From: the human T2T-CHM13v2.0 reference genome, Homo sapiens
Reading direction: 5' to 3' (one strand)
DNA length: 64,000 nt
Assembly: GCF_009914755.1 (NCBI RefSeq)
Contig: NC_060947.1
A model generated the notes under the pieces. The model saw only the letters and a list, made by a program, of their open reading frames with translations. It ran no database searches and was not told the DNA's origin. Below, piece after piece: positions 6,333-59,900 of the stretch; position 1 is the stretch's first letter; every line of letters starts with the position of its first letter. Made by a program: the position numbers and the translations under genes.

Positions 6333-6489
6333 AGGAGATATCACCACTGATTTCACAGAAATACAAACTACCGTCAGAGAATACTATAAACACTTCTATG
6401 CAGGTAAACTAGAAAATCTAGAAGAAATGGATAAATTCCTGGACACATATACCCTCCCAAGTCTAAACCAGGAAGAACTCGAATCCCTG
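6333..6489 (+). mobile_element. Internal L1 ORF2 fragment (~155 bp) at a duplication junction
   Basis: Matches 26188-26344 of the full-length L1 (gatatcaccactgat...aaaccaggaagaa..gaatc). No 3'UTR, poly(A) or TSD. Confidence 0.9.
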
Positions 6490-12570: not shown

Positions 12571-13459
12571 CACCTCCATCAGAAGCATTGAAAGCATACA
12601 ACCCATCGAAGAGCCAAAGAAGCACACCCATGTAATCACAGGTTTCCCCTTCAACTCCCATTGAACATCCCTGGACAACTAACTCTACCTATTTCAGACC
12701 AGGAAACCTGATCACACATTGGGCCATGGCCCCTTGGCTGCAGTTGCCTCACTGGCTGACACGGATCTGAGTGGAGCTTGTGCTGCTCCATTGGACGGCA
12801 TTCCATCATCCCCATGATGCACTGAGGCCAGTCATGAAGGTTTTCTTAAACAAAAGATTCTAGCCTGAAGAAGAGCAGAATCAGGTAAATCTAAACAAGT
12901 GAGATTTCATTACGAAGGAGCCTAGAATAGGTATTGTTCCTTAGACTTTTTGATGTAGTTTTCTCTGCCGTGTTTGTGTCCTTGCTTATATTTTCAAATG
13001 AACTCCAGGTTACAGGGAAGGCTGATCAAATGTTTGACTGGACTCTCTTTATCCCATTCATGCTGTTTTCCCTACATTGATACTTCTTATTTGTTGTTTA
13101 AGCAGTAAAGGTCTTTCCCGTAGTTTGCGTTTCTTTAAGTCACAGCATGACATCATGATTGCCTAATAGGTTCCGCTTCTGCTCAATGACCCAAAGAAAT
13201 ACCATATCAAATGTGTGAGCTTCCTCCTCCGATCTTCACATCAATCCACCCCTTTCCTCTTTCTTCCTGTAATTCACCGGCATCAGTCCCCTTGCCCCCT
13301 CACTCTTCACTCCCCACAACCAAATCAGATTTCATTGTTAACCCTGTTTTACTAATGGCCCTCTTTGATTTCTGAATTTACAAAGGGAAAACACATATTC
13401 CAAGGTAAAATATCTCAGTGGATTTGGTTTCTCAAAAGGACTTGTCTAATTACACACAT

Positions 13460-13803
13460 ATGCAAGGGTAACTTCAGAAATTTATTCGTATGTCTTAATT
13501 CACAGAAACATTGGCATTTTACAGCAAAACAATTAGCATAATGAGAAATAAGTCACTGAGTGAGATGTGGTGTTTTGTCAGGTACACAGCTCTGTCTCTG
13601 GGAAGAAGCAGGGTTCTGGCAAGGGTCTTTGGTTTGGCAAGGGTTGTTCCGGACTTGTAGGAACATTTGGTGGCACCATCCAGAAGGATTTACTTGCAGC
13701 TGATTTTGTGGGGTTTTTCTTGGTCTCCTCGTGCAATAAGCACAACTTCAACTATTTTCATAACATTTCTCTTCAGCTATTTCTGTAATATTTTTCTAAT
13801 AAT
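13460..13803 (-). other. H2BW2: H2BW2 predicted non-coding exon 3 with AATAAA (13481-13486)
   Basis: Acceptor tttcttttttttccag at 13804 and poly(A) signal, both conserved in the H2BW1 arm. The 3' end is approximate. Confidence 0.65.
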
Positions 13804-15050
13804 CTGGAAAAAAAGAAAGTAACAGATCCCAATGAGTGGACTTCTTGGTTCTATATCATTTCTCTATGGATCCCAAGTGGAGCTCTGGAGGTGACCTTCC
13901 CCTCTTCCCATCTGCACTACTCAGGGAAGCTCTGGCTACCATCTTGCCCTGACCCTGTTTCCCTCTTGACCAAGGGGTCCTCTTTAAATGGTGGAATAAT
14001 CTATGTGGCTATGTGTTGGGCCCTCTGGGGTGGTTCTTTCCCACTTCTGATGGGCTCAAGAAAATTTTGATTTTTGTCATTTATCCAGCTTTTGTTTCAT
14101 GGTTTGACTGAGAGTGCCATCCTTTACTGGTTTCTACATATGAAGGAGAAGGGTTGTTTATGAGATGTTTCAAAATTTACGGGAAACATTTAACAAAAAT
14201 GGCCACATGTTGAGCTTCAAGGCACAACATAATAAATTCCTGTGGGTTGCAGTCCCAGAGTATGTTCTCTTGTCCACATACTCGGGCGACTGGAAATCAA
14301 TGGAAAAGGAAAGCAATGGGAAAGTGAGCACCTGCTCTGAAATTCAGCAATACACTTATAGAAAAAAATGCTTAAAATGCCAAGACTTGGGACCCAGAAG
14401 AGAGCACAATGAAAGGTAGCCTATATTAATATTAACATGAATATAAATATGCTAATCTTTTGAGGAAATAAGCCTTATCTGACTTCTACTAATGGTTGCC
14501 AATGTTCTGTATAACTTGATGTTAGGGACAAGGTACATATTCTAATCTTAGCTTTGGATTCATATCCCTAAAAGATCATGATTACAAGCAATGCAAACAA
14601 AAACATCAGGTAAAGAATCACACTGCCGTTCCTTTAAACACCAGGTTGAATATAACAGGAAGGCTGCTGTGGGTTCAGCTTGGGTCACTCCCCCCACATT
14701 GGGTCAATGACTGTTGCTCATAGACTGCAGGTCACTCATTGGCTGTACCACTGTACACTAGGGCATGAGCTGTTTCCGTGGACACTCCGTAATCCTACTG
14801 ACACACACCTGGAAGTAAGGAAGGTTTCTGTTCAAAAAGAAATGAAAAAATTACTGTCAGTACAAAAAGAGAATGAATTACAATAGTGGTCTCAGAGTCG
14901 GGGAAGCTGGAAAACGAATGGATTCTTGAAAATTTTATTTAGCCATATATATACTGTAACTGGGCCTCGTTTGCTTATTTACATGGATTCATGATGAGAG
15001 AGATGCTGAACACATTTAGGAGGGTTACCTTGCTTCTTGTATCAGCATAT

Positions 15051-15087
15051 TCACTTTCTCTGTTGCCATATCGCACATAATGAAGTT
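15051..15087 (-). CDS. H2BW2: Histone H2B.W2 (H2BFM) coding exon 2: (R)TSLCAIWQQRK*
   Basis: Acceptor tttccag at 15088. The 428+37 nt spliced CDS gives 154 aa, matching the H2BFM C-terminus as recalled. Donor AAG|GTAACC at 15029. Confidence 0.9.
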
Positions 15088-15437
15088 CTGGAAAATCCCA
15101 CCATCCAGTCGTAGGAGAATGAGAGTGAAAAAGGTAAACATCAGTACATTGATAACATCATCATAAAGATAACCTAGAAAGATAACTAAGAAAAACGGCC
15201 ATTTGGGAAACTGAGGACACGAAACACGATTACGGAAACACCCCCTACTTTTCCTTGGAGCATATTGCACTACAGATATATTGGAGTTGACAGTGTTTTG
15301 CACTGTGGGAAAAATGCTTGAAAAACCGCAGGAGGCCACACGGCACATGCCCCCCAAGCTGGAACGGTGCCACCCACACCAACCTCCGGTGGGGTCCCCC
15401 CCTTGGCGGGCCACTGGCCTATAGGGCCACGGGCGGT

Positions 15438-15453
15438 GGTTCTGAATAGAGCC
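15438..15453 (-). terminator. Degenerate histone 3' stem-loop within H2BW2 intron 1
   Basis: CCCAAA-GGCTCT-ATTC-AGAACC-ACC vs canonical CCAAA-GGCTCT-TTTC-AGAGCC-ACC; 38 nt after the unspliced TGA. Confidence 0.85.
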
Positions 15454-15510
15454 TTTGGGTTTCCCAGGTGCTCAGGCGCTCCTGAGACAGCTCACTTGCT
15501 TTTGGTGTAC

Positions 15511-15938
15511 CTGAGGGCGGCATTCGTGCCCTGGGCCTCGGCGAGCTTGCCCATCTTCCCCGGCAGCAGCAGTCGCACGGCCATCTGGATGTCCCGGGAG
15601 GTGATGGTCACGCGCTTGGTGTAATGGGCCAGCTGACCAGCCTCGGTGGCGATGCGGTCCAATATGTCATGGATCATAGAATCCATGACACTCACGGCCT
15701 CCTGGGAAAGGCTGAGGCCCTGGTGAACCTGCTTCAGCACCCGGGGGAAATAGGGGGTGAAGCTGTCCCCGAAGCTGTCCCCACGGCGGTTGGCGTGGCG
15801 CCTGCGGGAGCCTCGGCACCCTCGCCTCTTCTGCTTCTGGGCCTTCGTGGAGTTGGCCTCTTTGGGCTCCTGGATGCTCTGGCCTTCCTCCGAGGTTGTC
15901 TCAGAGGAAGCCTCAGCCATGGCGGAAGCAGCGGCCAT
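15511..15938 (-). CDS. H2BW2: Histone H2B.W2 (H2BFM) coding exon 1
   Basis: MAAASAMAEASSETTSEEG...DSFTPYFPRVLKQVHQGLSLSQEAVSVMDSMIHDILDRIATEAG...RLLLPGKMGKLAEAQGTNAALR is an H2B histone fold. Donor CAG|GTACAC at 15511/15510. Confidence 0.97.
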
Positions 15939-15989
15939 TAGATAGCAAGAACAGAGAGTGACGGTTGGGGACCAGGGAAGTGGGGGGCA

Positions 15990-16485
<496 letters not shown>

Positions 16486-40725: not shown

Positions 40726-42119
40726 ATTAGAGAAACAAAATAAGGACTATATATTACAATTTTGCATCACGTAGATGATGGGAACATCCTGTGAGAGCAG
40801 CTCATGCCATAGTCACCACTGGCTCAGGCAATAAAGGCTTTCCAGCCCTTGAGGCACCACAAGCCATGGCTGAAAGTGTGGGGAGGTGACCCGGAAATGA
40901 ACCAGTGAGAGCCTCCCTGGGAGGTTTAACCTTGCAGATTGTGAAGAAAAACGATGTGGCTCTTTCCCTGTTTTTTGTTTGCTTTTTTTTTTTTAAGAAA
41001 AATATCATGCTGACTTACTGATATGAATACAGAGATTGTTGTGGACAGGTCTCTTGTGCCTTGTACCAAACTACGAGAAGGATTGTCTTGCTAAACGTTT
41101 AAGTAGATTTATAAGATCATCATTTGTAAAGGGGACTGTTCAGAAATGGTGTACTAGAGTTCAGTCACAGAGCTTACCATATACGATCTTATCTAACAAC
41201 AAAAATGAGCCTTTTTGTCCTTCTTAATCGTGAACCAATTTATTAGGAGTAGAATAAGTTGTTTGCTAAAGACATGACAGGAAATACACTTGAAAGCCTG
41301 ACCTTTGAAATGACAGTTCATCGATGACCTTTATTTCTTCAGCATTTCTTAAGAATCTTTCTTGTTCAATTCCTGCAACTTAATGTTACTTAAATGCATT
41401 TAAGGAATGCCTTTGCGTATATTATCAGAGACTCTTGAAAGCTCTCTTTCTAACTTGAACATAATTTCCATTTCTGGAATCCCTTTCTCTCCCTCAGGGG
41501 CTTCCTAGGAGATTTAAGGCGATATTTTTTAACCCAATATCTCTTAAACTTATTAGCCATTTCCAGCTTTTGAGTTGTGATTTGTGGTTGTTGTTTTGCT
41601 TTCCTTTTTTTTTTTTTAATTATTTTTTTAAACCTGGTCGATGTCGAGTGTTGTCATATGTTTTTAATAAAAGTGCCTTTCTGTTTCTATTGTCTGCTTG
41701 GAGGCTGGGGTATGGCCATTTCTCATTCTCCTGATTCACGGAAGATGTTGATCAGTACTGAAGCCCGGAGCCAGACCGCTAGGTCCTTTGATGCCCAGGC
41801 GGCCATGTCAGGGAGTTCCTGCTCAAGCCAGGGTGGCTTAGCCCAGGATAACAGTAGCTTCTGAGATGGGTGACAATTGTTCCACACGTGGCCACAGTCA
41901 TTCTTCCGGCATAATGGACTTGGGCTCAGGAGGTCTGTCTCTCTTCAGGGATCATGAGCTGAAATTGCTAAACTTTGGGAGTTTTCAGTGACACCCTTCA
42001 AAGTGCTCACAGTGTGGCATGGATCAGCTGAGAAGGGCGGATGCGCTTTTGCCCCGTGAGGCATCTATCTGTGTAACTTTCTCCGAGCTGGGCCACAAGG
42101 GGCGCTTAGGCCCGCAGAC

Positions 42120-42270
42120 GCCCACTGTGATTGGTTGACGAGATGCCACGCAATGGGACCATCCAGTCACCTTCAACGCAGGTAGGTTTGCTGAGAGGCT
42201 CCCTGCGTGACACTTCATCCAATCAGACGTGAAGCTGGCCCGAGACGTGGAGCCATGCTGCGTACCGAAG
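42120..42270 (+). promoter_or_regulatory. H2BW1 promoter: opposed CCAAT boxes (42129-42134, 42219-42224), ACGT CRE-like cores
   Basis: Motifs read directly; colinear with the three paralogous promoters. Confidence 0.6.
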
Positions 42271-42320
42271 TGCCCCGGCTTCCCCGGTCCACAACCGCCA
42301 TTGTCTGGTCGTGCCATCTA

Positions 42321-42745
42321 ATGGCCACTGCCTCCGCCATGGCTGGACCTTCCTCTGAGACGACCTCTGAGGAACAGCTGATCACCCAGGAGCCCAAAGA
42401 GGCCAACTCCACTACGTCCCAGAAGCAGAGCAAGCAGAGGAAGCGAGGGCGCCATGGGCCCCGCAGGTGCCACTCCAACTGCCGCGGGGACAGCTTCGCC
42501 ACCTATTTCCGCCGGGTGCTGAAGCAGGTTCACCAGGGCCTCAGCCTTTCCCGGGAGGCCGTGAGTGTCATGGATTCTTTGGTTCATGACATATTGGACC
42601 GCATCGCCACCGAGGCTGGTCACCTGGCCCGCTCCACCAAGCGCCAGACCATCACTGCCTGGGAGACCCGGATGGCTGTGCGCCTGCTGCTGCCGGGGCA
42701 GATGGGCAAGCTCGCCGAGTCCGAAGGCACGAAGGCTGTCCTCAG
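42321..42745 (+). CDS. H2BW1: Histone H2B.W1 (H2BFWT) coding exon 1; in-frame upstream ATG at 42255 gives the 175-aa form
   Basis: MATASAMAGPSSETTSEEQL...DSFATYFRRVLKQVHQGLSLSREAVSVMDSLVHDILDRIATEAG...EGTKAVLR. Donor CAG|GTACAC at 42745/42746. Confidence 0.97.
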
Positions 42746-42802
42746 GTACACCAGGAGCAAGTGCGCTCCCTCAGGAGCACCCGAGCACCACGGGAACCCA
42801 AA

Positions 42803-42818
42803 GGGTCTTTTCAGAGCC
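42803..42818 (+). terminator. Degenerate histone 3' stem-loop (plus HDE-like GAAAGACCAGTG at 42833-42844) within H2BW1 intron 1
   Basis: CCCAAA-GGGTCT-TTTC-AGAGCC-AC: one mismatch from canonical GGCTCTTTTCAGAGCC. Confidence 0.88.
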
Positions 42819-43166
42819 ACTGAATGTGGCCTGAAAGACCAGTGGCTCGCCAAGGGGGACACCACCGGAGGCTGGGGTGGGTGGTGCCCTTCCGACTTGG
42901 GGGGCATGTGGCGTGTGGCATCCTGCAATGTTTCAAGCATTTTCCCCTCAGTACTAAACATTGTCAGCTCCAATATATCTGTAGTGCAGTTTGCTCCAAG
43001 GAAAAATAGTGGGTGTTTCCGTGATCGTGTTTCATTTCCTCAGTTTCGTAAACGGTCATTTTTGTTAGTTATGTTTCTAGGCTATCTATATGGTGATATT
43101 ATTACTGCACTGATCTTTACCTTTTTCTGTCTCATTCTCCTGTGACTGGATGGTGGAATTTTCCAG

Positions 43167-43203
43167 AACTTCACTGTATGCCATACAGCAACAGAGAAAG
43201 TGA
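43167..43203 (+). CDS. H2BW1: H2B.W1 coding exon 2: (R)TSLYAIQQQRK*
   Basis: Acceptor ttttccag at 43166. The 425+37 nt CDS gives 153 aa (175 from 42255). Donor AAG|GTAACC at 43225. Confidence 0.92.
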
Positions 43204-44451
43204 ATACGCTGATACAAGAAGCAAGGTAACCCTCCTAAATGTTTTCAACACCGCTCCCATCACGAATCCATGTAAATAAGCAAATGAGGCCAAGTTACAG
43301 TGTACATACAGCTAAATAAAATTTTCAAGAATCCATTCATTTTCCAGCTTCCTCGACTCTGAGATCACTATTGCAGTTCATTCTTTTTTTGCCATGACGA
43401 TAATCTTTTCGTTTCTTTTTAAACAGAAACCTTCGTTACTTCCAGGTTTGTGTCAGTAGGCTTAGGGAGTGTCCACAGAAATGGCTCATGCCCTAGTGTT
43501 CAGTGGTGTAGCCAATGAGTGACTTGCAGTCTATGAGCAACAGTCATTGTCCCAATGTGGGGGCAGTGAACCAGGCTGAACCCACAACAGCCTTGCACTG
43601 ATATGCAGTCTGGTGTTTGGGGGGACAGGGTTGTGATTCTTTACCTGATGTTTTTGTTTTCAGTGTTTGTAATCATGGTCATTTAAGGATATGAATCCAG
43701 TGCTAGGAGTAGTATATGTTCCTTGCCCCTAGCATCAAGTTATGCAGAGGATGGTCAGCCTTTAGGAGAAGTCAGATAACGCTTATTTCCTCAAGAGATT
43801 TGCATATTAATATTCATGTTAATGTTAATATAGGTTAGCTTTCATTGTGCTTTCTTCTGGGTCCCAAGTCTTTGTATTTTTAGCACTTTTTCCTATGAGT
43901 GTATTGTTGAATTTCAGAGCAGCTGCTGACTTTCCCATTGCTTTTCTTTTCAGAGGATCTCCAGCCGCCCGAGTATGTGGACCAGAGAACATACTCTGGG
44001 ATTGCGACCCATAGGAATTTATTGTATTGTGCCTTGAAGCTCAATATGTGGCCATTTTTGTCAAATGTTTCCCGTGAATTTTGAAACATCTCATAAACAA
44101 CCTTTCTCCTTCATATGTAGAAACCAGTAAAGGGTGACACTCTCAGTCAAACCATGAAACAAAAGCTGGGAAAATGACAAAAATCAAAATTTTCTTGAGC
44201 CCATCAGAAGTGGGAAAGAACCACACCAGATGGCCCAACACATAGCCACATAGATTATTCCACCTTTGGCAGAGGACCGTTTGGTCAAGAGGGAAATGGG
44301 GGCATGGCAGGATAGTAGCCAGAGCTTCCCTGAGTAGTGCATTTGGGCAGCGTGGGCAGTTCACCTCCAGAGCTCCACTTGGGCTCCGTAGAGAAAGGAT
44401 GTAGGGCCAAGAAGTCCCCTCATTGGGATTTGCTACTTTCTGTTTTTGCAG

Positions 44452-44780
44452 AATATTAGAAAAATGTCATGAAAATAGTTGAAGAGAAATGCTCACTGCA
44501 CAAGGAGACCAAGAAAAACCCCCCACGAAATCAGCCACAACTAAATCGCTCTGGACGGTGCCGCCAGGTGACCCTACATGTCCGGAGCAACACTTTGAAA
44601 ACCAAAGACGCTTGGCAGAACCCTGTTCCTTTCCAGAGACAGAGCTGTGTACCTTGTCTAAAACACCGCATCTCACTCAGTGACTTATTTCTCATTATGC
44701 TAATTGTTTTCGCTTTAAAGCGCCAGTCTTTCTGTCAAATGGGACATACAAATAAATTTCTAAAATTATCCTTGCATGTC
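44452..44780 (+). other. H2BW1: H2BW1 predicted non-coding exon 3 with AATAAA (44751-44756)
   Basis: Acceptor tttctgtttttgcag at 44451 and poly(A) signal, conserved with H2BW2. The 3' end is approximate. Confidence 0.65.
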
Positions 44781-47700
44781 TACTGGGTAATTTGACATGT
44801 CTTTTTCAGAAACCGTATCCATTGGGATATTTTACCCTGGAGTGTGTGTTTTCCATTTGTAAATTCAGAAATGAATGAGGAGCATTAGTAAAACAGCGTT
44901 AACAATGAACTCTGATTGGGCTGTGGGGAGTGAAGAGTGAGAGTTCAAGGGGACTGATGCCGGTGAGTTATAGGAAGAAAGAGAAAAAGGCTGCTTTGAT
45001 GTGAAGATGGGCAGAGGAGCTCACACATCTGCTATAGCATTTCAGTGGGTGATTGAGGAGAAGGGGAACCTAGTGAGCAATCGTGATGTCAAGCTGTGGC
45101 TTACTGAAAACACAAAGTAAGGGAAATAGCTTTACGGCTTAAACAACAAATAAGAAGTATCAATGTATGGAAAGTAGGATGAATAGGACAAACATAGTCC
45201 AATCAATCTTTTCATCAGCATTCCCTGTACCATGGAGTTCATTCGTAAACATGAGCAAGGACCCAAAGACAGTACAGAGAAAATGATATAAAAAATTTTA
45301 AGGAACAATACCTATTCTAGGCTCCCTAGAAATGGAATCCCACTTGCTTAGATTTGTCTGATTCTGCTCTTCTTCAGACTAGAATCTTTTGTTTTTGGAG
45401 ACCTTTATGCCTGGCCTCTGTTCATCATGGGGATGATGGAATGCTGTCCGATGGAGCAGCACAAGCTCCACTCAGATCCTTGTCAGCCAGTGAGGCACCT
45501 GCAGCCGAGGAGCCACAGCCCAATGTGTGATGAGGTTTCCCGGTCTGAACTAGGAAGAGTTACTTGTCCAGGGATGTTCAATGGGAGTTGAAGGGGAAAC
45601 CTGTGATTACATGGGTGTGCTTCTTTGGTTCTTCGATGGGTTGTATGCTTTTAATGCTGCTGTTGGAGGTGTATTTTATTATATTAGTTTTCTAGGGCCG
45701 CTGCAAAAATATTCCAGAGACTGGCTGACTTAAACACTATGTATTTTTCATCCCACAGTTCTGGATACCTATTGTCACCTTTTTGTAAGGAGACCAATCC
45801 TGTTGGGTAGGGTCAACCCTCATAACTTCACTTTAACCACATGACCTGACTAGAGACTCTCTCCAAATAAGGTCACATTCTAAAACACTGGGGGCCAGGA
45901 CTTCTACCTCTGAATTGTAGGGAGACACAACTCCATCCATACTAGTACACCTTCTGCATCCACTCCGCGGCACAAATTAATGTCCTCACATAGGAAATAC
46001 ATTCATTTCATCACAACATCCCCAAAGACTTAACGCCCTCCAACGTCAATTCTCTAATATCTCACCTGATAATCTATATCTGGAATGGGTGAGCCTCCAG
46101 GTATGACTCATGCTGAGGCGGGAATTCTCTCCACCACTGCACCTGTGAAGCTAGACACGTTGTCTGCTTCTGAAAGACAGTTGTGGGACTGGTGCCGGAT
46201 AGGGCTTATCCTACCAAAAGCAGGAAATCTGAAAAACTACTGGAGTACGTGGGCTCTAAGCACTTTTGAAACCTAATGGGGGCAAATTCCGTTACATTCC
46301 AAGGATGGAAAAGATTCTGCCTGGGCTCACTGCTCTGTCCTTCAGGCCCAATGGGGTAACAGCTTCACACCCTAAGCCCTGGGCAGCGGGGTGGGGGCTC
46401 TCCCCCCAGCCTGGGCTGCTGCAGCCCATCCCTCTGAAACCGAGGAGGTGGGACAAATGCCTGGAACTCAGGAGGTGACCTCCATTTCTGGGACCAAGAG
46501 AGAGATGGCCCAGTCCCCTAGTACCGTGCCCCTGGTTCTTGGGGGCAGTGACGGCCATGCCAACCTCTGACCCAACTTTGGAGTCCTTCTTCCCTGTCTC
46601 GAAAATGAAGAAATGGTCACAGCTGGGTACCTCAGTCAGTCCCTTTCTTGCCGGTACAGTCCAGGAACTCTAACAGCCTCCTTTCATTTCGTCCCATCTT
46701 TGTCCCGTTCAGTCCAGTCTGGCAACATTTTTCTCGTATAAAATTCTCAAAAATTTGTTGGCTTCCCATGGAATTCACATGAGTCCAGGCCATCAGACAA
46801 GAAGTTGTCTACAGATCTTCCTTGAATACCCATATCTCCCATATCTCAATTCCTAACTTCTGCAGAGATGGTTGATTGGATCCGTGAGGCACATGCCTCT
46901 CCTCTTAGGCCAATGGTTTTCCAGGCACACCCTTGCACCTGTTTCCAGAGCAAGGTATCTGCATACTTTGAGTACCTTCTGAATCATCCAGTGCTGGCTT
47001 CCTTCTCCTCAGTGCTTCCTTGGCTAATTTCTCTCACTTCTCTCCCATTTACTGTAGGCATCTAGGAGTAACCAGATTAAATCTAAATACTTTTCTCAGT
47101 TTGTCAGTGTAGTGGCCAAGGTTCCCCCTGGTCTTCTTAAGTTTTGCTGAAAGCTCAAGTCACAAAACGCAGAGCCATAGGACATAAGGCATACCAACTT
47201 ATTCGAAGTGTATCCCCAGAGGCTTTAGTGTTAATAGCCAAAGATACATGGGAAATTATCCATTTTTATGCCTGGGCTCAAAGGAGTATAAACAGCTGTG
47301 TAGAAATACGATGGGACAAAAAGGCTATGATCTAATGCTAACAGGTGGAGTGGGGGAACCCAGCAAGGCCTGTCTGTCTAGACTCTGCTTGGCCTATCTG
47401 AGCACACAGTCCTTCCTCCCGGATATGGGGCAGGACCCTCTCTGGAATGGGGGTCTGGTGACTCCAAACAACATAGGTTCGATCATTTCTTCATGGACAG
47501 TTTTTACATGAAAATGTGGAAAACATTACAATACCGTTTCTAGGTTTTGTGACTATCTTTAGAAAAAAGAGCTTCTGGTTTCTAGGACCCACCTTCCGGA
47601 AGAGGGATTCTGGTCTCTAAGTTTAGCCCCCGGGGCTGAATGGGACTGAGAGACCAGAGGACCAAGAATGTCAGAGAAAATCGTTTTCATCTGAGACTAC

Positions 47701-48448
47701 TTCTGAAGCCCTCATTTTGGGATAGTGTGCCCTGAGCTCCAACACTAGAAATCAGCTACATGTGCAAGTTCATCACTTACAAATTCTACTTTCCTCAAAG
47801 ACACTATGAAGACAATACAGCCCAAACCTTTGCCACTGTAAAACTAGGATGGCCTTTCCTCGTGCTTCCAATAACCTCTTCCTAGTCTCCGTCTGAAAAC
47901 ACACCACAGGCACCTTTAACACACATAGTTCTAGCAACATTTTGGTGATCATGATATATGTATTCTCTAAGTCAGAGATCCTTTCTCTACAGCAAAGAAT
48001 TCTTTCTTAACCCTCGTTTCAATGTCATTTGGTGTTCATATCCCCCCCGCCGTTTCCTGAAGGCACTCTAGGCTTCTTGTGTCATGCCTGTCACAACGCT
48101 TCCAGCCTGTATGCATTACCTAGTTCCAAGGCCTCTTCCAATCTTCCGGATGTTCCTTATCACATCATCCCACTGCTTGGCAACAGAATCTCCAGTAGTT
48201 TGATAGGGCTATTCTGACAAAGTACCACAAACATGGCGGCATAAAAAGCAGAAATTTATTGGTTACATTTAGGCAGGCTGGAAGTCCAAATCAAAGCGCC
48301 AGCTGGGTTGGTTCCTTCTGAGTAGTAAGAGGGAAGGATCTCTTCCAGGGATCTTTCCTTGACTTGTAAATGGTCCACTCTTGCGCATGCCACTTCACAT
48401 TTTCTTCCCTGGATGCATGTCTCTGTGTCTGAATTTCCCCTTTTGGTA

Positions 48449-51400
48449 TGCCGCAGAGCAAGTGCTCAACCCTTCCGACTCTCAACTAGGGCGAGCTCTG
48501 CGTTCCACGCATTCTTCCACTCCTGTTCTGCGACCTCTCCAGTTCCAAACAAGCTGCGTTGTACTAGGAATCCTCTCTAAATCATATTCGTCATCTGGTT
48601 ATTCCTTATTTCTTCCTTCAGGAGCCCACTCTCTCTTGGGAGAGCTGCGGATCCTCGCTCAGCGTTGTGTGTCAGGGTTGCCAAAGACCTGATGTGTGAG
48701 GCTTCTTTGCCTTTTTCATAGGCAAGTGAGCACATAAGTTCTTGTCTAATAAATGTGGGGGCAGCTTTCAGAGTGAATGGGGCACTACGAATCATTGGGT
48801 GGGACAATAGGCAAAACCTGTACGTGTGGCCACCCCTCTGTGGAAAGATCTGGGGATAGAATAAGAACATCCATTGGGGTTTCGAACACAAAGTTTGGTG
48901 GGCAATGAGAGCGATTTACTTTTAATAGCATGTTTTTCATGATTTCTTCTCTTTGACATTCCTGTGCTTTTGTTTCCTGGAGACAACTGGTGTGGCTAGG
49001 CTGCATTAACATGGGAAAGAGACACAACACCATTAGAGCGTCTGTTTGGGTCTTAGGACTCATGTGAGCTAGTGGGACTGGACTCGACAGCAAGAGTCAT
49101 TGAGAGCATGGGATTGGGGGTGAGAGGAGACCTGGGCTCAGACCCCAGCTGTGCCTCTTAGAGGCTGTACCGTGTTGGGCAAGTGGCTTGACCTCTCTGA
49201 GCCTCAGTTTCCTCCTCTGTGGAATAGGGCTCTAGAAGGTGGTTGTGAAGATCCAGGGTGATGATGCAGACGGGGTGCCAGATACATAGTCAGCAACCAA
49301 TGAATGTCGGCTGTACCTGGTCCCAATTTCGAGATTCCTGCCCTCCGGAAATCACAGGTGGTGGGGGTGGGATCCAGTGCCAGACAGCTGTATGAGCACA
49401 CCCTCCTGGCTACCTGGGACACATCTGTTTGCTTCGGGCTGACAGTGAGATAAGGGAGGATGATTTTTCCCCCCTGAGCCACATGTTAGTGAAGCAGTAG
49501 AGATAACGCTGCTCTGAGTCCTGACGGGAAGTTGCTGGGGAGCAACTTTAAAGTGCTCCTGGCTTCGGGCACTAACCACTCGGGGCTTTGTGGCAAGCTA
49601 TTCCCCCTCACGGCCAAGGAACCTCGCTTCCCATACCACCTCCTTGCCCCTGCCCACCGTCTCACTATCTGAATCCTATTCACTTTTCAGGTCTTGGCTC
49701 AAATCCTGACTCCCCTATGAAGATGTCCTGACCCTCCCAGCCTAGAGAGACTGCTCCCTCCTTGAGTCACAGGATCTCCAACCGTGACATGGGCACACTG
49801 TTTGCAACATCCTCACAGACGGATTGTGATGAGGAAGGAAAGAGAGAGTCGATGTAGCGTGCTAGGTGCAGTGTCTGGTGCAGGCCTGTGGTGAGTTCCC
49901 TGACTCTTCTTCTTCCTCCCTTCTGAACCCACAGCATGCTGGCATGGCGGCCTTGATCACATGCTGCCTTCTCTTGATAGTCATTGGAGATCATGTCTGT
50001 GCTAGTTGTCCCCTCAGTTGCAATGTCACAGACCACGGGGGCCACATCTCATCCTTCCTCACCTTCCAGCATCCAGCACTACAATAAACGCCATCGTAAC
50101 CATTTTTCATTGGGCACCTTAGGGTACAATGTGGCAGGCACTCGGCTATGTAGGTAATGCACATAAGTGTAGTCCTCACTCATTCCCCTCCTAGCTCTCT
50201 TCCAGGATGTGCAGGCACTGATTCTCCTTTGAGTTATACCAGACAGATTTGGTCAACCGCTACCAAGGTCGCATCATGAGTAAGTGGCCCTGACAGGCAT
50301 CTAGTCCTATGCTAGATTAAGTTCTAGTGAATGCCTGTGAATGGGTGGTGGGCAGGAGGGAAAGATGTAGAGCCCAATATAGCAGTGCCTGCCTTGTACT
50401 TTTACCAGGCAGAGGCAGGCCTGCTTGAGAGAAAGCTGTAGGCAATAAAGACATAGGACTCAGTGGGTCCTCGAGCTCAGGTAAGGGGATATAGTCCCTC
50501 CAGGACAGGGGGAGAAATGGAGAGGGGATGGTTCAAGCTAAACCTCAAGGCAGCTGTCCCAGGGAATTCCACAGTGGCTCCAGGATCCCCCAAAATAGTA
50601 GCAGATGACCCACCCACTGGCCATCCTCAAGGTGAACTGTAGAACAAGCCCGGGTCAAGAAAGCCTCCTTGGAAAAGGTCTGTTAGCCTAGAAGATGTTG
50701 AATCCCTTGGGAGTCCACAATGGGCATTTCACTCCCACAGATCCTTGGGAGAGAACCAGGCCACAAGATCACCCGTGTGACCTATGATGCAATGAGGAGA
50801 CAGGCTCCACTGTGCTTAAGTGTCCCTTACAAGTAGAAGCCAGAGGAGCTGCACTCAGTGCTATTTATTCACCCGATGCCTAAGGTCATTGGGGAAGGTC
50901 CCAGACAGCTTGTACCAGCACGCCTGATGCCTTGGAGGGGCTGGCTGGAGGCCTGAGCTCAACCGGGCCTCTGCACCTCTCCAAGGCCCCTCAGAGCATA
51001 TCACTGTGGTGTCTCCAGCAGGAGAGGTGGACTTCTTAGGGGGCAGCTCAGAGCTCTCAGACAGCCAGACAGAGGCCACTCTAGTCCTCTGAAAGGTTAC
51101 CTCTGGGACAGGCTAAAGTCCGCCATTCTCCATGTGTCAAAGCCATCAACGGGCCTGTCGGGAGCCCAGAGGGAGGGGCAAGCAGACGCAACCAATGTGC
51201 CAATACGAAGAGCATTCAGGAATGGGCAGCCTTTCTGAGATGCAGCCTATTCAGCACACGCTTCTTGAGATGCTGCTGGGTGGCACACACAGAGCATGTG
51301 CATAAGAAGTGGTCCTTTAACTCTCTGGGTCGAAGGGGTAGGCTCTCAAATGGTTTTACACTGGACCTATCACTAGCAGGGTGACATCTCCCATTTAGTG

Positions 51401-57039: not shown

Positions 57040-57846
57040 GGCGTGATGACTGAATAGGAACAGCTGCAGTCTGCAGCTCCCAGGAAGATCGACATAGAAG
57101 GCGGCAATTTCTGCATTTCCAACTGAGGTACCCTGTTCATATCATTGGGACTGGTTGGAAAGTGGGTGCAGCCCACAGAGGGCAAGCCGAAGCAGGGTGG
57201 GGCACCACCTCACCCGGGAAGTGCAAGGGGTTTGGGAATTTTCTCCCCTACCCAGGGGAAGCTGTGAGGGACTGAGCCTGAAGAACCATGGACTCTGGCC
57301 CAGATACCGTGCTTTTCCCACGGTTTTTGCAACCCACACACCAGGAGTTTCCCCCGGTGCCTACCCCACCAGGGCCCTGGGTTTCAAACACAAAACTGGG
57401 CGGTCATTTGGGCAGACACCGAACTAGCTGCAGGAGTTTTTTGTTTGTCTGTTTGTTTGTTGTTTGTTGGTTTGTTTGTTTGCCATACCCCAGTGGCGCC
57501 TGGAACGTCAATGAGACAGAACAATTCACTCCTCTGGAAAGGGGTGCTGAAGCCAGGGAGCCAAGTGGTGTGGCTAAGCAGGTTCTACCCCTACGAAGCC
57601 CAGCAAACTAAGATCCACTGGCTTGAAATTCTCACTGCCAGCACAGCCACACCCTGAGATCGACCTGGGATGCTCAAGCTTGGTGGGTGGAGGGGTGTCC
57701 ACTATTGCTGAGGCTTGAGTAGGCAGCTTCATCCTCACAGTGTAAACAAAGCCGCCAGGAAGTTTGAACTGGGCATAGCCCACTGCAGCTTAGCAAGCCA
57801 CTGTGGCCAGACTGTCAGATTTCTACTCTCTGGGCAGGGCATATCT
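57040..57846 (+). mobile_element. Older L1PA 5'UTR only (3' part lost)
   Basis: gatgactgaataggaacagctgcagtctgcagctccc...tttctgcatttccaactgaggtac; ends abruptly at gggcatatctg. Confidence 0.85.
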
Positions 57847-59900
57847 GCAAAAGTATTCCACAGACTGGCTGACTTCAACACTGCTTATTTTTTATCTCAT
57901 AGTTCTGGATGCTAATTGTCACCTTTTTATGAGGAGACCAATCCTATTGGGTAGGGTCAACCCTCATAACTTCACTTTAACCAGATGACCTGTGTAGAGA
58001 CTCTCTCCAAATAAGGTCACATTCTAAAACACTGGGGGCCAGGACTTCTACGTGTGCATTGTATGGAGACACAACTCCATTCATAATAGTATACCTTCGG
58101 CATCCACTCCCCTGCCCAAATTAATGTCCTCACATAAAAAATGCATTCATTTCATCACAACATTCCCAGAGTCTTAACCCACTCTGAAATCAACTCTCCA
58201 ACATCTCATCTGAAAGTCTTCTATATCTGGAATGGGTGAGTCTCCAGGTATGACTCATGCTGAGGCAGAAATTCTCTCCACCACTGCACCTGTGAAGCTA
58301 GACAAGTTATCTGCTTCCGAAAGACAGTTGTGGGTCTGGTATGGGATACGGTTTATCATACCAAAAGCAGGAAATCCGAAAAACTACTGGAGTTCGTGGG
58401 TCCTAAGCACCTTTGAAACCTAGTGGGGCAAATTCTGTTAAATTCTATGGGTGGAAAAGATTCTACTTGGGCTCAATGCTTTGTCTTTCAGGCCCAAGGC
58501 AGTAACAGCTTCATACCCTAAGCCCCGGGCAGAGGGATGGGGGCTCTCCCCCAAGCCTGGGCTGCTGCAGCCCATCCCTCTGAAACCGAGGAGGTGGGAC
58601 AAATGCCTGGAACTCAGAGATGACCTCCATTTCTGGGACCAAGAGAGAGATGGCCCAGTCCCCTAGTACCGTGCCCCCGGTTCTTGGGGGCAGTGACAGC
58701 CATGCCAACCTCAGAGCCAACTTTGGAGTCCTTCCCTTTCTTAAAAATGAAGAAATGGTCACAGCTGGGTACCTCAGTCAGTCCCACTCTTGTCTGTACA
58801 GTTCAGGAACTCTAACAAAAGCCTCCTTTCATTTCTTCCCATCTTTGCCCTGTTCAGTCCAGTCAGGCAACATTTTTTCTAGTATAAAATTCTCAAATAC
58901 TTCTTGGCTTGCCCTGGAATTCACATGGGTCCGAGCCGTCAGACAAGAAGTTGTTTACAGATTGTTCTTGAATACCCATATCTCCCATATGTCAATTCCT
59001 AACTTCTGCAGAGATGGTTGATTGGATCCATGAGCCCCATGCCTCACATCTTTAGCTAATGGTTTTCTAGGCACACCCTTGCACCTGTTCCCAGAGCAAG
59101 GTATCTGCATCCTTTGAGTACCTTCTGAATCATCCAATCCTGGCTTTCTTTTCCTCAGTGCTTCCTTGGCTAATTTGTCTCTTTTCTCTCCCCTTTACTA
59201 TAAGGATCTAGGAAAAACCAGATTAAATCCTAAGTACTTTTCTCAATTTGCCAGTGTAGCGGCCAAGGGTCACCCTGGCCTTCATAATTTCATTGAAAAC
59301 TGAGCTCGCAAAAGGCAGATGATTAGGACATAAGGCATACCTAATTATTTAACGTGTATCCCCAGGAGCCTTTAGTGTTAATAGCGGAAGACACATGGGA
59401 AATTATCTATTTTTATGCCTAGGCTCAAAAGAGCATGGACAGCTGTGTATAGACATGATAGGGGAAAAAGGCTATGATCAAATGCTAATAGACTGAGTGA
59501 GGGAAAACTGGCAAGGACTGTCTGTTTAGACTCGGCTTGGCCTCTCTGAGTACAGTCCTTCCTCCTGGGTATGGGGCAGGACCCTCTCTGGAATGGGGGT
59601 CTCATGACCAACAGTCAAATGAGCTAGGTCAGATAATTTCTTTACCACCAGGGTTTTACATAGAAAGACTTGGGAGGTGGAGAATCAGATTAATGTTTTC
59701 AGTTTTTATGAACTGGCTGTGTGGGAAAGGGGCTCTGGTTTTGAAGACTTTCCTTGGGGATGAGGGATTCTGCTTTCTATGGCCAGCCTCAGGGGAGAAT
59801 GGGAATGAGAGAAAGGAGGGCAGAAGAAGGTCAGAGAGAAACTTGTGCTTCTGAGGCTACTTCTGAGGCCTTCATTTTGGGCTACTGTTTTCTGAGCTGC
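57847..59900. repeat. Third copy of the MaLR/ERV1-LTR block (direct to 45703-47750, inverted to 10490-12545)
   Basis: Colinear, e.g. ORF 58232..58423 vs 46085..46276. Confidence 0.88.

What the first reader, a model, noticed from the sequence alone, without database searches (positions are those of the whole stretch)
42738..42764. One substitution removes the K120 ubiquitination site and builds the splice donor
Seen: both genes read CTC AGG TAC ACC (L-R-Y-T) where canonical H2B has ACC AAG TAC ACC (T-K120-Y-T); the donor CAG|GTACAC lies inside the Arg codon. Known: K120 is the RNF20/40 monoubiquitination site needed for H3K4/H3K79 methylation crosstalk. Inference: intronization by point mutation coupled to loss of H2Bub1. 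The new stop is 22 nt before the last junction, so the spliced mRNA should escape NMD.
Basis: partly seen in the sequence, partly recalled or inferred. Interest (0 to 1): 0.7.

Follow-up and report, generated by a model that had tools for sequence, protein, structure and literature searches.

The report
H2B.W splice donor inside former K120 codon
In the two human testis histone genes H2BW1 and H2BW2, the base that turns the ubiquitinated lysine 120 into arginine is also the last exon base of a splice donor, but the arginine is old and widespread in mammals, so it probably allowed the intron rather than created it.

Summary
Both genes read CTC AG|GTACACC. Exon 1 ends inside an AGG codon at the place of H2B K120. 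The new stop lies 22 nt before the next junction.

Three corrections apply. The GT and the intron start GTACACC are inherited from the canonical AAG TAC ACC; only donor position -1 (A>G) is new. In H2BW2 the last junction is 41 nt after the stop, not 22. The spliced codon is AG|A, so an AA| exon end would have kept Lys.

Intron 1 holds the old last five codons, the old stop position and a decayed histone 3' stem-loop. It is therefore an intronised former 3' end.

The "one mutation did both" reading is only partly supported:
- Arg at this site is found in 17 of 23 and 43 of 48 mammalian H2B.W proteins with ordinary unspliced-type tails, including armadillo and elephant.
- The exon-2-type tail is not limited to primates. 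It also occurs in bats, a squirrel and probably horse. It always follows Arg, with one Leu exception, and never Lys.

Loss of K120 and the introns are already published. The dual role of this base was not found in the papers I searched. Interest is moderate.

The parts
42339..42745 (+). H2BW1 coding part of exon 1 (short-form ATG to the exon end inside the Arg codon)
   Evidence: Annotation given with the finding; translation; PDB 8jcc_D, E 1.8e-86
42743..42751 (+). H2BW1 5' splice site CAG|GTACAC. The Arg codon AGG is 42744-42746 (K120 equivalent) and -1G is 42745
   Evidence: Six contiguous U1 pairs at -3 to +3; +4 to +6 mismatch
42747..42764 (+). Relic of the old C-terminal codons Y-T-R-S-K plus the former stop position (now TGC), at the start of intron 1
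   Evidence: read-through ...AVLRYTRSKC. It equals the lemur and macaque unspliced-type tails AVLRYTRSK. Without the old stop the unspliced ORF runs on to 43143-43145
42798..42843 (+). Decayed histone 3' stem-loop (stem-loop 42803-42818, one G-G mismatch) inside intron 1, 38 nt after the former stop
   Evidence: RF00032, 22.2 bits, E 0.0011, below the gathering score of 34
42746..43166 (+). H2BW1 intron 1 (GT...AG), acceptor TTTTCCAG|A
   Evidence: Annotation
43167..43225 (+). H2BW1 exon 2 (59 nt). It codes TSLYAIQQQRK, with the stop TGA at 43201-43203, 22 nt before the exon end
44452..44768 (+). H2BW1 exon 3 (3'UTR), AATAAA at 44751-44756
   Evidence: Annotation
15511..15920 (-). H2BW2 coding part of exon 1
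   Evidence: Annotation; PDB 9jc6_D, E 1.3e-51
15505..15513 (-). H2BW2 5' splice site CAG|GTACAC (Arg codon 15512-15510)
15492..15509 (-). Relic old tail Y-T-K-S-K with the old stop TGA (15494-15492) still intact, at the start of intron 1
   Evidence: read-through ...AALRYTKSK*
15413..15458 (-). Decayed histone 3' stem-loop in H2BW2 intron 1 (one C-A mismatch, loop TTTC>ATTC), 38 nt after the old stop
   Evidence: RF00032, 16.7 bits, E 0.13
15088..15510 (-). H2BW2 intron 1
   Evidence: Annotation
15029..15087 (-). H2BW2 exon 2. It codes TSLCAIWQQRK, with the stop at 15053-15051
14809..14827 (-). H2BW2 19-nt exon 3, which puts the last junction 41 nt after the stop
   Evidence: Annotation

Best explanation
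The site is the working 5' splice site of intron 1 of H2BW1 and H2BW2. The intron is the former 3' end of an intronless, stem-loop-type H2B gene: its last five codons, its stop and its 3'UTR with the histone stem-loop. The first seven intron bases, GTACACC, are the old third base of the Lys120 codon plus the Tyr and Thr codons. Compared with canonical H2B, the only change that matters to the donor is A>G at the second base of that codon. This change makes the codon Arg in the unspliced reading (AGG) and in the spliced reading (AG|A). It also gives the donor its -1G, so that U1 can pair with six contiguous bases (-3 to +3) of a site that has no match at +4 to +6. One base therefore sets both properties (shown from sequence). 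That the donor needs this G is inferred. In evolution the events were probably not simultaneous. Arg is the common state of eutherian H2B.W, including copies with an ordinary unspliced tail, so K120 was probably lost first, or at least independently. A protein-level reason is possible, since R164K restores polyubiquitination and turnover in cDNA experiments. The Arg codon then offered a latent donor, which became an intron once a downstream acceptor, a 59-nt exon with a new stop and a poly(A) site were in use. That step is older than primates, because the same exon-2 tail is found in bats, a squirrel and probably horse. Splicing removes the stem-loop and puts the new stop 22 nt (W1) or 41 nt (W2) before the last junction, so the mRNA is polyadenylated and should avoid NMD.
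For: - Sequence and junctions.
- GTACACC is ancestral: 'AAGTACACC' occurs 106 times in the H2B.1 and replication-coupled H2B alignments.
- Old tail, stop and stem-loop lie inside the intron at the same 38-nt spacing in both genes. RF00032 is the best hit in both introns, E 0.0011 and 0.13.
- In pinniped H2B.W-like models the read-through past a canonical tail translates as QRLFSEPP. That is what an intact stem-loop encodes.
- Effect of -1 A>G: +3.07 bits on a position-weight matrix built from recalled frequencies. The best U1 duplex is -7.1 versus -2.8 kcal/mol, and the latter forms only in a shifted register.
- Exon-side and intron-side compensation in 5' splice sites is documented (PMC10599564, passages).
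- The W1 and W2 arms of a 6.4-kb inverted duplication (87.6% identity) share the donor, acceptor, exon 2 and stop, so the intron predates the duplication.
- Arg with a canonical tail: 13 of the 17 Arg-bearing proteins among the 23 H2B.W proteins of Raman Data S8. Their contiguous ORF spans are in Table S1. Also 43 of 48 canonical-tail named mammalian models.
- Exon-2-type tail: 22 of 196 stored database proteins (18 simian, 3 bat, 1 squirrel), with 21 Arg, 1 Leu and 0 Lys. The BLASTP alignment of bat against macaque runs ungapped through LRSSLYLIWQQIK / LRTSLCAIWQQRK.
- The Table S1 span of horse W.3 ends exactly at the Arg codon, as the human span does.
- R164K data: PMC7995529.
Against: - No transcript data were examined here. 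Use of the donor rests on the RefSeq annotation, published proteins and conserved tails.
- The crude matrix does not single the donor out. It ranks 3rd of 53 GTs in W1 and 6th of 45 in W2. W2 has a higher-scoring GT 15 nt downstream at the old stop.
- One exon-2-type model (Rhinolophus ferrumequinum, P0063) has Leu at the site. If that model is right, the exon does not end in AG there.
- Canonical-tail models also exist for simian genes that are known to be spliced (macaque P0005, gorilla P0026). A canonical-tail model in another order is therefore no proof that splicing is absent, and the order 'Arg first, intron later' is not secure.
- The codon used for Arg outside human was not seen. The nucleotide rows of the Raman supplement are cut before the site.
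- W1 versus W2 identity of exon 2 (88.1%) is no higher than that of intron 2 (87.9%), so the paralog comparison shows no extra constraint on exon 2.
Confidence: 0.7

Rival explanations
1. Strict form of the reader's idea: a single A>G mutation in the K120 codon created the intron and removed the ubiquitination site in one step, so the two traits arose together.
For: The same base is codon position 2 and donor -1. All 21 Arg-bearing exon-2-type tails, and none of the Lys-bearing proteins, fit this idea. Both traits are old, at least as old as the common ancestor of primates, bats, squirrel and horse.
Against: Arg is common in copies with a contiguous canonical-length ORF. Examples are armadillo, elephant, mouse, cow, sheep, panda and many carnivores. 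An intron also needs an acceptor, exon 2 and a poly(A) site, which one mutation cannot supply. If the exon-2-type tails have a single origin, the association counts as one evolutionary event and has no statistical weight.
Confidence: 0.12
2. The -1G is not needed. The donor would work with AA|GT as well, so the overlap of the Arg codon and the donor is a coincidence of position.
For: On the crude matrix the donor is no better than several unused GTs nearby, so context rather than the 9-mer decides its use. One bat model has Leu at the junction.
Against: With +4 to +6 all mismatched, removing -1G breaks the only contiguous U1 helix: -7.1 kcal/mol, against -2.8 in a shifted register. Exon-side and intron-side compensation is a general property of 5' splice sites. 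A G>A change at the last exon base is a known cause of mis-splicing, for example OTC spf/ash (PMC4390381, abstract in the listing). 0 of 22 exon-2-type tails follow Lys.
Confidence: 0.12
3. Dual output: the genes, H2BW2 above all, still make an unspliced mRNA that encodes the canonical-length tail ...LRYTKSK and ends at or near the stem-loop. The spliced polyadenylated mRNA is made beside it, so the intron is facultative.
For: H2BW2 keeps the old stop TGA and the old tail codons. [quoted passage not shown] Canonical H2BC4/5/12 make both kinds of mRNA (PMC5100578 and PMC3661734).
Against: Both stem-loops have a broken third base pair and score well below the Rfam threshold. H2BW1 has lost the old stop, and its unspliced ORF runs 132 codons past the Arg codon. 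No RNA data were examined here.
Confidence: 0.25
4. Splice first: an early intron used a weak AA|GT donor that kept Lys as AA|A. The A>G change was fixed later because it improved splicing, and the loss of K120 was a by-product.
For: AA|A would code Lys, so a Lys-bearing spliced ancestor is possible in principle.
Against: No Lys-bearing exon-2-type tail was found among 22. Arg occurs in many copies annotated without the intron, including Atlantogenata.
Confidence: 0.05

Closest known systems
Spliced, polyadenylated mRNAs of replication-dependent H2B genes HIST1H2BC/D/K (H2BC4/5/12) (Lyons et al. 2016, PMC5100578; Kari et al. 2013, PMC3661734; passages read)
   Same: An intronless-type H2B gene is spliced from a donor upstream of the histone stem-loop to a downstream second exon. 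The stem-loop is removed, the mRNA is polyadenylated, and the stop lies under 55 nt from the junction, so NMD is avoided.
   Different: There the donor lies between the stop codon and the stem-loop, so the protein is unchanged and K120 is kept. In H2B.W the donor lies about 16 nt upstream of the old stop, inside the codon for residue 120. Splicing therefore swaps the last five residues for eleven new ones with a new stop. The stem-loop has also decayed, so the spliced route looks like the main one.
Intronisation of exonic sequence (Catania and Lynch 2008, PMC2586383, seen in the search listing only; Irimia et al. 2008, recalled)
   Same: The intron consists of sequence that is exonic in relatives (coding tail, stop, 3'UTR). 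It was recruited through a latent GT and not through an insertion.
   Different: The case involves a histone gene and a residue with a known modification. The intron spans the old stop and 3' end-processing signal, so it also changes the mode of mRNA 3' end formation.
Natural and engineered H2B K120R (H2BFWT R164; PMC7995529 passages; PMC11514470 passage; PDB 9e3d 'H2B K120R')
   Same: Arg replaces the ubiquitin-acceptor Lys. H2BFWT shows little polyubiquitination and a longer half-life, and R164K reverses this in cDNA constructs.
   Different: Those studies used cDNA and did not consider that the same base is part of a splice donor. The effect of the reversion on splicing is untested.
Exitrons (Marquez et al. 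2015, PMC4484396, listing only)
   Same: The donor lies inside protein-coding sequence.
   Different: An exitron lies wholly within a coding exon. Here the intron runs past the old stop and 3'UTR to a separate downstream exon, so it is not an exitron.

Membership tests
H2B.W histone variant (H2BW1 / H2BW2) | H2B histone fold with H2B.W-type sequence, identical to the published human proteins | tested here: met
   PDB 8jcc_D 'Histone H2B type W-T', E 1.8e-86, and 9jc6_D 'H2B type F-M', E 1.3e-51. The spliced translations match Raman Data S8.
U2-type GT-AG spliceosomal intron | GT at the intron start and AG at the intron end at the annotated borders, in both paralogs | tested here: met
   CAG|GTACAC ... 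TTTTCCAG|A in both genes.
U2-type GT-AG spliceosomal intron | Donor strength adequate by a standard scoring method (MaxEntScan) | not testable with these tools
   No MaxEnt model was on hand. A matrix from recalled frequencies gives 4.46 bits against 12.75 for the consensus, and ranks the site 3rd of 53 GTs in W1 and 6th of 45 in W2.
U2-type GT-AG spliceosomal intron | Junction seen in RNA | not testable with these tools
   This rests on the RefSeq NM_ models given with the finding and on published proteins. No RNA data were read here.
Intronisation (intron made from formerly exonic sequence) | Intron sequence homologous to coding and 3'UTR sequence of intronless relatives, in the same order and spacing | tested here: met
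   The old tail Y-T-x-S-K, the stop position and the stem-loop relic lie 38 nt apart in both introns. The tail equals the lemur and macaque unspliced-type tails.
Intronisation (intron made from formerly exonic sequence) | Ancestral state without the intron | tested here: inconclusive
   Replication-coupled H2B lacks introns (PMC8857922). Armadillo and elephant H2B.W are annotated as contiguous ORFs. These are gene models, and canonical-tail models also exist for spliced simian genes.
Histone 3' UTR stem-loop (Rfam RF00032) | Score at or above the gathering score of 34 bits, with an intact 6-bp stem | tested here: not met
   22.2 bits (W1) and 16.7 bits (W2), each with one non-standard pair. 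There was no hit at gathering level in the whole window. It is a relic, not a member.
H2B K120 monoubiquitination site (RNF20/40 target; the enzyme name is recalled) | Lys at the position aligned with K120 | tested here: not met
   Arg in both the spliced and unspliced readings of both genes. Published as R164.
NMD-insensitive stop placement | Stop no more than about 55 nt upstream of the last exon junction | tested here: met
   22 nt in H2BW1 and 41 nt in H2BW2. The rule is as quoted in PMC5100578.

The most novel reading that the evidence does not exclude
The K120>R codon installed a standing latent donor (CAG|GT) at the end of the H2B.W histone fold. Mammals have since used it as a socket for swapping C-terminal tails. 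The same donor is joined to the conserved 59-nt exon 2 in primates, bats, squirrel and horse. It is joined to a distant exon in dog W.2 (27-kb span), and to other acceptors in predicted ape and monkey isoforms, which then read Ser (AG|Y) at the site. Copies that returned to, or kept, Lys (rabbit, camelids, galago) are exactly those that do not use it. The tail of this histone and its ubiquitination state would then be tied together by splicing constraints across about 100 million years.
Probability: 0.3. Interest if true: 0.55.

Novelty: new member of a known kind. Interest (0 to 1): 0.4.

Why it matters
The site gives a concrete, testable example of one nucleotide under two kinds of constraint: a protein modification site and a splice signal. 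It also shows how an intronless, stem-loop-type histone gene became a spliced, polyadenylated variant gene. There is a practical consequence. A genomic R>K reversion of H2BW1 or H2BW2, intended to restore ubiquitination, may also change splicing, so results from cDNA may not carry over. The comparative result also corrects the idea that the extended H2B.W tail is a primate feature, since the tail is found in bats and a squirrel and probably in horse. The gene structure, the loss of K120 and the extended tail are each already published, so the advance is modest.

Tried and rejected
1. The Rfam search of the whole window at gathering level gave 0 matches. The stem-loop relics appear only in E-value mode on the two introns.
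2. I tried to read the codon at the site in other primates from the nucleotide alignments of Raman et al. The stored rows are cut at about 400 characters, just before the site, in three look-ups. The codon outside human therefore stays unseen.
3. Churikov et al. 2004, the first description of the interrupted gene, is not held. It may already describe the intron position relative to the codon.
4. Earlier findings of this scan were not open.
5. MaxEntScan was not available. A matrix from recalled frequencies and a U1 duplex energy were used instead. The matrix does not single the donor out, so it supports only the size of the -1 effect.
6. 'Annotation artefact' was rejected. The junction gives the published proteins. 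The exon-2 tail with its stop is kept in 18 simian cluster representatives. W1 has also lost the old stop.
7. 'Primate-specific intron' was rejected because of the bat, squirrel and horse tails.
8. 'Exitron' was rejected because the intron passes the old stop.
9. The comparison of W1 and W2 by segment showed no extra conservation of exons over introns, so it says nothing about selection on exon 2.
10. The Lys calls in three mustelid two-domain models (P0020-22) and in Sciurus carolinensis (P0097) rest on doubtful alignment. They are not used as evidence.
11. Literature searches for a statement of the dual role of the base were: 'H2B.W'+'intron', 'H2BFWT'/'intron'/'stem-loop', 'intronization'+'histone' and 'H2BFWT'+'K120'. 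None of the passages I read states it.

Full report
**What is in the sequence.** Window 42738-42764 reads GTC CTC AGG TAC ACC AGG AGC AAG TGC. The annotated exon 1 of H2BW1 ends at 42745, so the junction is CTC AG|GTACACC and lies inside the Arg codon 42744-42746. H2BW2 on the minus strand has the same nine bases, CAG|GTACAC, with exon 1 ending at 15511. Both introns end in TTTTCCAG|A, so the spliced codon is AG|A, still Arg. Joining the annotated exons gives ...AVLR-TSLYAIQQQRK* for W1 and ...AALR-TSLCAIWQQRK* for W2. These are the human proteins listed in Data S8 of Raman et al. 2022, and they match PDB chains 8jcc and 9jc6 up to the junction.

The Arg sits where canonical H2B has K120. Canonical 126-residue chains align to query residue 141 without a shift. 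The published alignment also puts R under the K of AVTKYTS.

The stop TGA at 43201-43203 is 22 nt before the end of exon 2. In H2BW2 the stop at 15053-15051 is also 22 nt before the end of exon 2, but a further 19-nt exon puts the last junction 41 nt downstream. Both distances are below the 55 nt quoted for efficient NMD in PMC5100578.

**What the substitution changes.** The nucleotide alignments of primate H2B.1 and replication-coupled H2B in the Raman supplement contain 'AAGTACACC' 106 times, in the context GTCAC[T/C] AAG TAC ACC AGC (24 places shown). The GT of the H2B.W donor and the following ACACC are therefore inherited from the Lys, Tyr and Thr codons. The A>G change at the second base of the Lys codon is donor position -1. 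The Thr>Leu change touches only -4 and -5.

The donor matches the U1 consensus at -3 to +3 and mismatches at +4, +5 and +6. I scored it with a position-weight matrix built from recalled human frequencies, not with a tool library. The real site scores 4.46 bits, the Lys version 1.39 and the consensus 12.75. The best duplex with the recalled U1 5' end is -7.1 kcal/mol for the real site. For the Lys version it is -2.8, and that duplex forms only in a shifted register. A paper on 5' splice-site statistics summarises that mismatches on one side of the junction are compensated by matches on the other, including the -1/+5 and -1/+6 pairs (PMC10599564, passages). That -1G matters here is thus a reasonable inference, but it was not tested.

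Two results count against reading too much into the 9-mer. The site ranks only 3rd of 53 GTs in W1 exon 1 plus intron 1, and 6th of 45 in W2. W2 also has a higher-scoring GT, CAA|GTGAGC, 15 nt downstream at the old stop.

Because exon 2 starts with A, an exon ending in AA would give AAA, which is Lys. The base at -1 therefore decides the residue in the spliced protein as well.

**What the intron is made of.** Read without splicing, W2 continues ...AALRYTKSK followed by TGA. This is a canonical-length H2B tail with its stop. W1 continues ...AVLRYTRSK and then TGC where the stop was. Its unspliced frame stays open for 132 codons after the Arg codon, up to 43143-43145.

Thirty-eight bases after the old stop position, both introns hold a sequence that is the best Rfam hit in each intron. 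It is RF00032, the histone 3' UTR stem-loop: 22.2 bits and E 0.0011 at 42798-42843, and 16.7 bits and E 0.13 at 15458-15413. Each has one broken pair in the stem, and both are below the gathering score of 34. The whole window gave no hit at gathering level.

Intron 1 is therefore the former tail, stop and 3' end-processing region of a stem-loop-type histone gene. Raman et al. report that they detected both stem-loops and poly(A) signals at H2B.W genes. I could not see their Figure S15.

W1 and W2 lie in a 6.4-kb inverted duplication, 9790-16192 against 42068-48451, at 87.6% identity. They share the donor, acceptor, exon 2 and stop, so the intron is older than the duplication. Identity is 86.9% in coding exon 1, 83.8% in intron 1, 88.1% in exon 2 and 87.9% in intron 2. 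The comparison therefore shows no extra constraint on the exons.

**How old are the Arg and the intron.** Data S8 of Raman et al. lists 23 H2B.W proteins. At the K120 position:
- 17 have Arg: armadillo, elephant, panda, dog W.2 and W.3, horse W.1-3, cow W.1-3, sheep W.1-3, mouse, and human W.1 and W.2.
- 2 have Lys: rabbit W.1 and W.2.
- 4 have Trp, Gly, Thr or Glu.

Thirteen of the 17 Arg proteins continue with a canonical-length tail (R-Y/F-x-x-x-x). Their spans in Table S1 are contiguous ORFs, for example elephant at 381 nt and mouse at 672 nt. The other four diverge right after the Arg. They are the two human genes, horse W.3 and dog W.2. The listed span of horse W.3 (507 nt, 169 codons) ends exactly at the Arg codon, as the human W.1 span does (492 nt, 164 codons). 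Dog W.2 spans 27 kb.

A search of the protein database with the window's own translation listed 120 proteins, of which 91 carry a mammalian species name. The 29 unnamed or non-mammalian ones were dropped. The 91 fall into four groups:
- 20 have a tail of the human exon-2 type, all after Arg. They are 18 simian representatives, Rhinolophus sinicus and Pteropus.
- 48 have a five-residue canonical tail: 43 Arg, 2 Lys (both camelids), and 1 each of Thr, Met and Leu.
- 16 have other or longer tails: 9 Arg, 4 Lys and 3 Ser. Three of the Lys calls are doubtful two-domain mustelid models, and the fourth is the galago.
- 7 could not be placed by the script.

One of those seven, Rhinolophus ferrumequinum P0063, has an exon-2-type tail after Leu (seen by eye and).

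A second search with the bat protein added 76 proteins. Among them is a Sciurus vulgaris protein ending ...LLR-RSVCVIRSHIK. No further Lys appeared among the H2B.W-type tails.

Over all 196 stored database proteins, 22 have an exon-2-type tail: 21 after Arg, 1 after Leu and 0 after Lys. BLASTP aligns the bat and macaque proteins without a gap through LRSSLYLIWQQIK / LRTSLCAIWQQRK. The bat reading continues across the positions of the two human stops, with the Y-K further on kept. The horse tail GFFMLIGQHVM has the same length and shares L-I-x-Q with the bat tail. I judged this by eye only.

Three predicted primate isoforms read Ser at the site and then unrelated tails: orangutan P0025, proboscis monkey P0031 and marmoset P0039. 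The marmoset tail matches the 3' part of the human intron in another frame. This fits the same donor joined to another acceptor, giving AG|Y = Ser (by eye).

**Reading of these data.** The exon-2 tail, and so the intron, is not limited to primates. It goes back at least to the common ancestor of primates, rodents, bats and horses. Arg is older or equally old. It is the majority state in every order sampled, including armadillo and elephant, whose genes are annotated as unspliced.

Arg is plainly not sufficient for the spliced form.

Two cautions apply. Most non-human entries are gene predictions, and canonical-tail models exist even for macaque and gorilla genes that are spliced (P0005, P0026). 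The absence of a spliced model elsewhere therefore proves little. In addition, if exon 2 arose once, the Arg and exon-2 association is a single event and has no statistical weight. Raman et al. themselves warn that their non-primate annotations of the H2B.W termini may need revision.

**What is already known.** The NAR 2024 paper states that the genes have two and three introns and that H2B.W1 lacks the K120 equivalent (PMC11514470, passages). An iScience 2021 paper describes the natural K>R change (R164 in the long form). It shows that H2BFWT is hardly polyubiquitinated and is more stable. It also shows that R164K, made in cDNA, raises ubiquitination and turnover (PMC7995529, passages). [quoted passage not shown]

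The nearest known mechanism is the splicing of canonical HIST1H2BC/D/K. A conserved donor between the stop and the stem-loop joins to a downstream exon, removes the stem-loop, gives a poly(A) mRNA and avoids NMD (PMC5100578 and PMC3661734, passages). H2B.W works the same way except that its donor lies inside codon 120, so the protein tail changes too.

I found no statement that the K120>R base is also the -1 base of the donor, nor that the intron holds the old tail and stop. This rests on the passages read after four searches. The 2004 paper that first described the interrupted gene is not held and could contain such a statement.

**Verdict.** The causal story is plausible as a permissive step, but the data do not support it as a single creating event. 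The finding is an instance of a known process, intronisation of a former 3' end, which parallels the spliced canonical H2B mRNAs. It adds a neat two-way constraint on one base. Interest is moderate.

Noticed in passing
window 15487-15498 (minus strand), GT at 15495-15494: In H2BW2 the old stop region AGC AAG TGA GCT contains CAA|GTGAGC, the highest-scoring GT of exon 1 plus intron 1 on the crude matrix (7.67 bits against 4.46 for the annotated donor). It lies 15 nt downstream and in frame. Used with exon 2, it would give ...LRYTKSK-TSLCAIWQQRK with AA|A = Lys at the junction. It is not annotated as a donor.
   Followed up: partly
window 42558-42566 (+) and 15698-15690 (-): A GCC|GTGAGT motif with a perfect intron side (+1 to +6) sits inside the histone fold (codons E-A-V-S-V) of both genes. 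By annotation it is not used as a donor.
   Followed up: no
window 9790-16192 vs 42068-48451; also 271-2725 vs 6486-8945, 6486-8458 vs 48449-50419, 10743-12546 vs 57845-59642: Several large inverted duplications at 86-89% identity make the H2BW2 and H2BW1 region a nested palindrome-like structure. The flanking pseudogenes H2BW4P and H2BW3P and the two lncRNAs in the annotation table mirror this arrangement.
   Followed up: partly
proteins P0082, P0084, P0099, P0180 (named pinniped models) and unnamed P0101: Gene models that read through the canonical-length tail translate ...NQRLFSEPP.... This is what an intact histone stem-loop (GGCTCTTTTCAGAGCC) encodes in one frame, so these H2B.W-like genes seem to keep a perfect stem-loop, unlike the human genes.
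   Followed up: partly
proteins P0016-P0023, P0027, P0032, P0123-P0125: Many carnivore gene models fuse two H2B.W-like histone folds into one protein of about 205-260 residues. They are probably mis-joined tandem copies, but they could be real two-domain transcripts.
   Followed up: no
protein P0063 (Rhinolophus ferrumequinum) and P0090 (R. sinicus): Both have Leu at the K120 position. P0063 has an exon-2-type tail and P0090 a canonical-length tail. If the P0063 junction is real, the exon does not end in AG there.
   Followed up: no
window 42255 and 42321 (+): Two in-frame ATGs upstream of the annotated start give the published 175-residue long form. The literature says only the short form is seen in vivo (PMC11514470).
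   Followed up: no
window 42828-42840 (+): A purine-rich CTGAAAGACC lies a few bases after the stem-loop relic of H2BW1. It may be what is left of the histone downstream element. The H2BW2 copy has diverged (CCCTATAGGCC).
   Followed up: no
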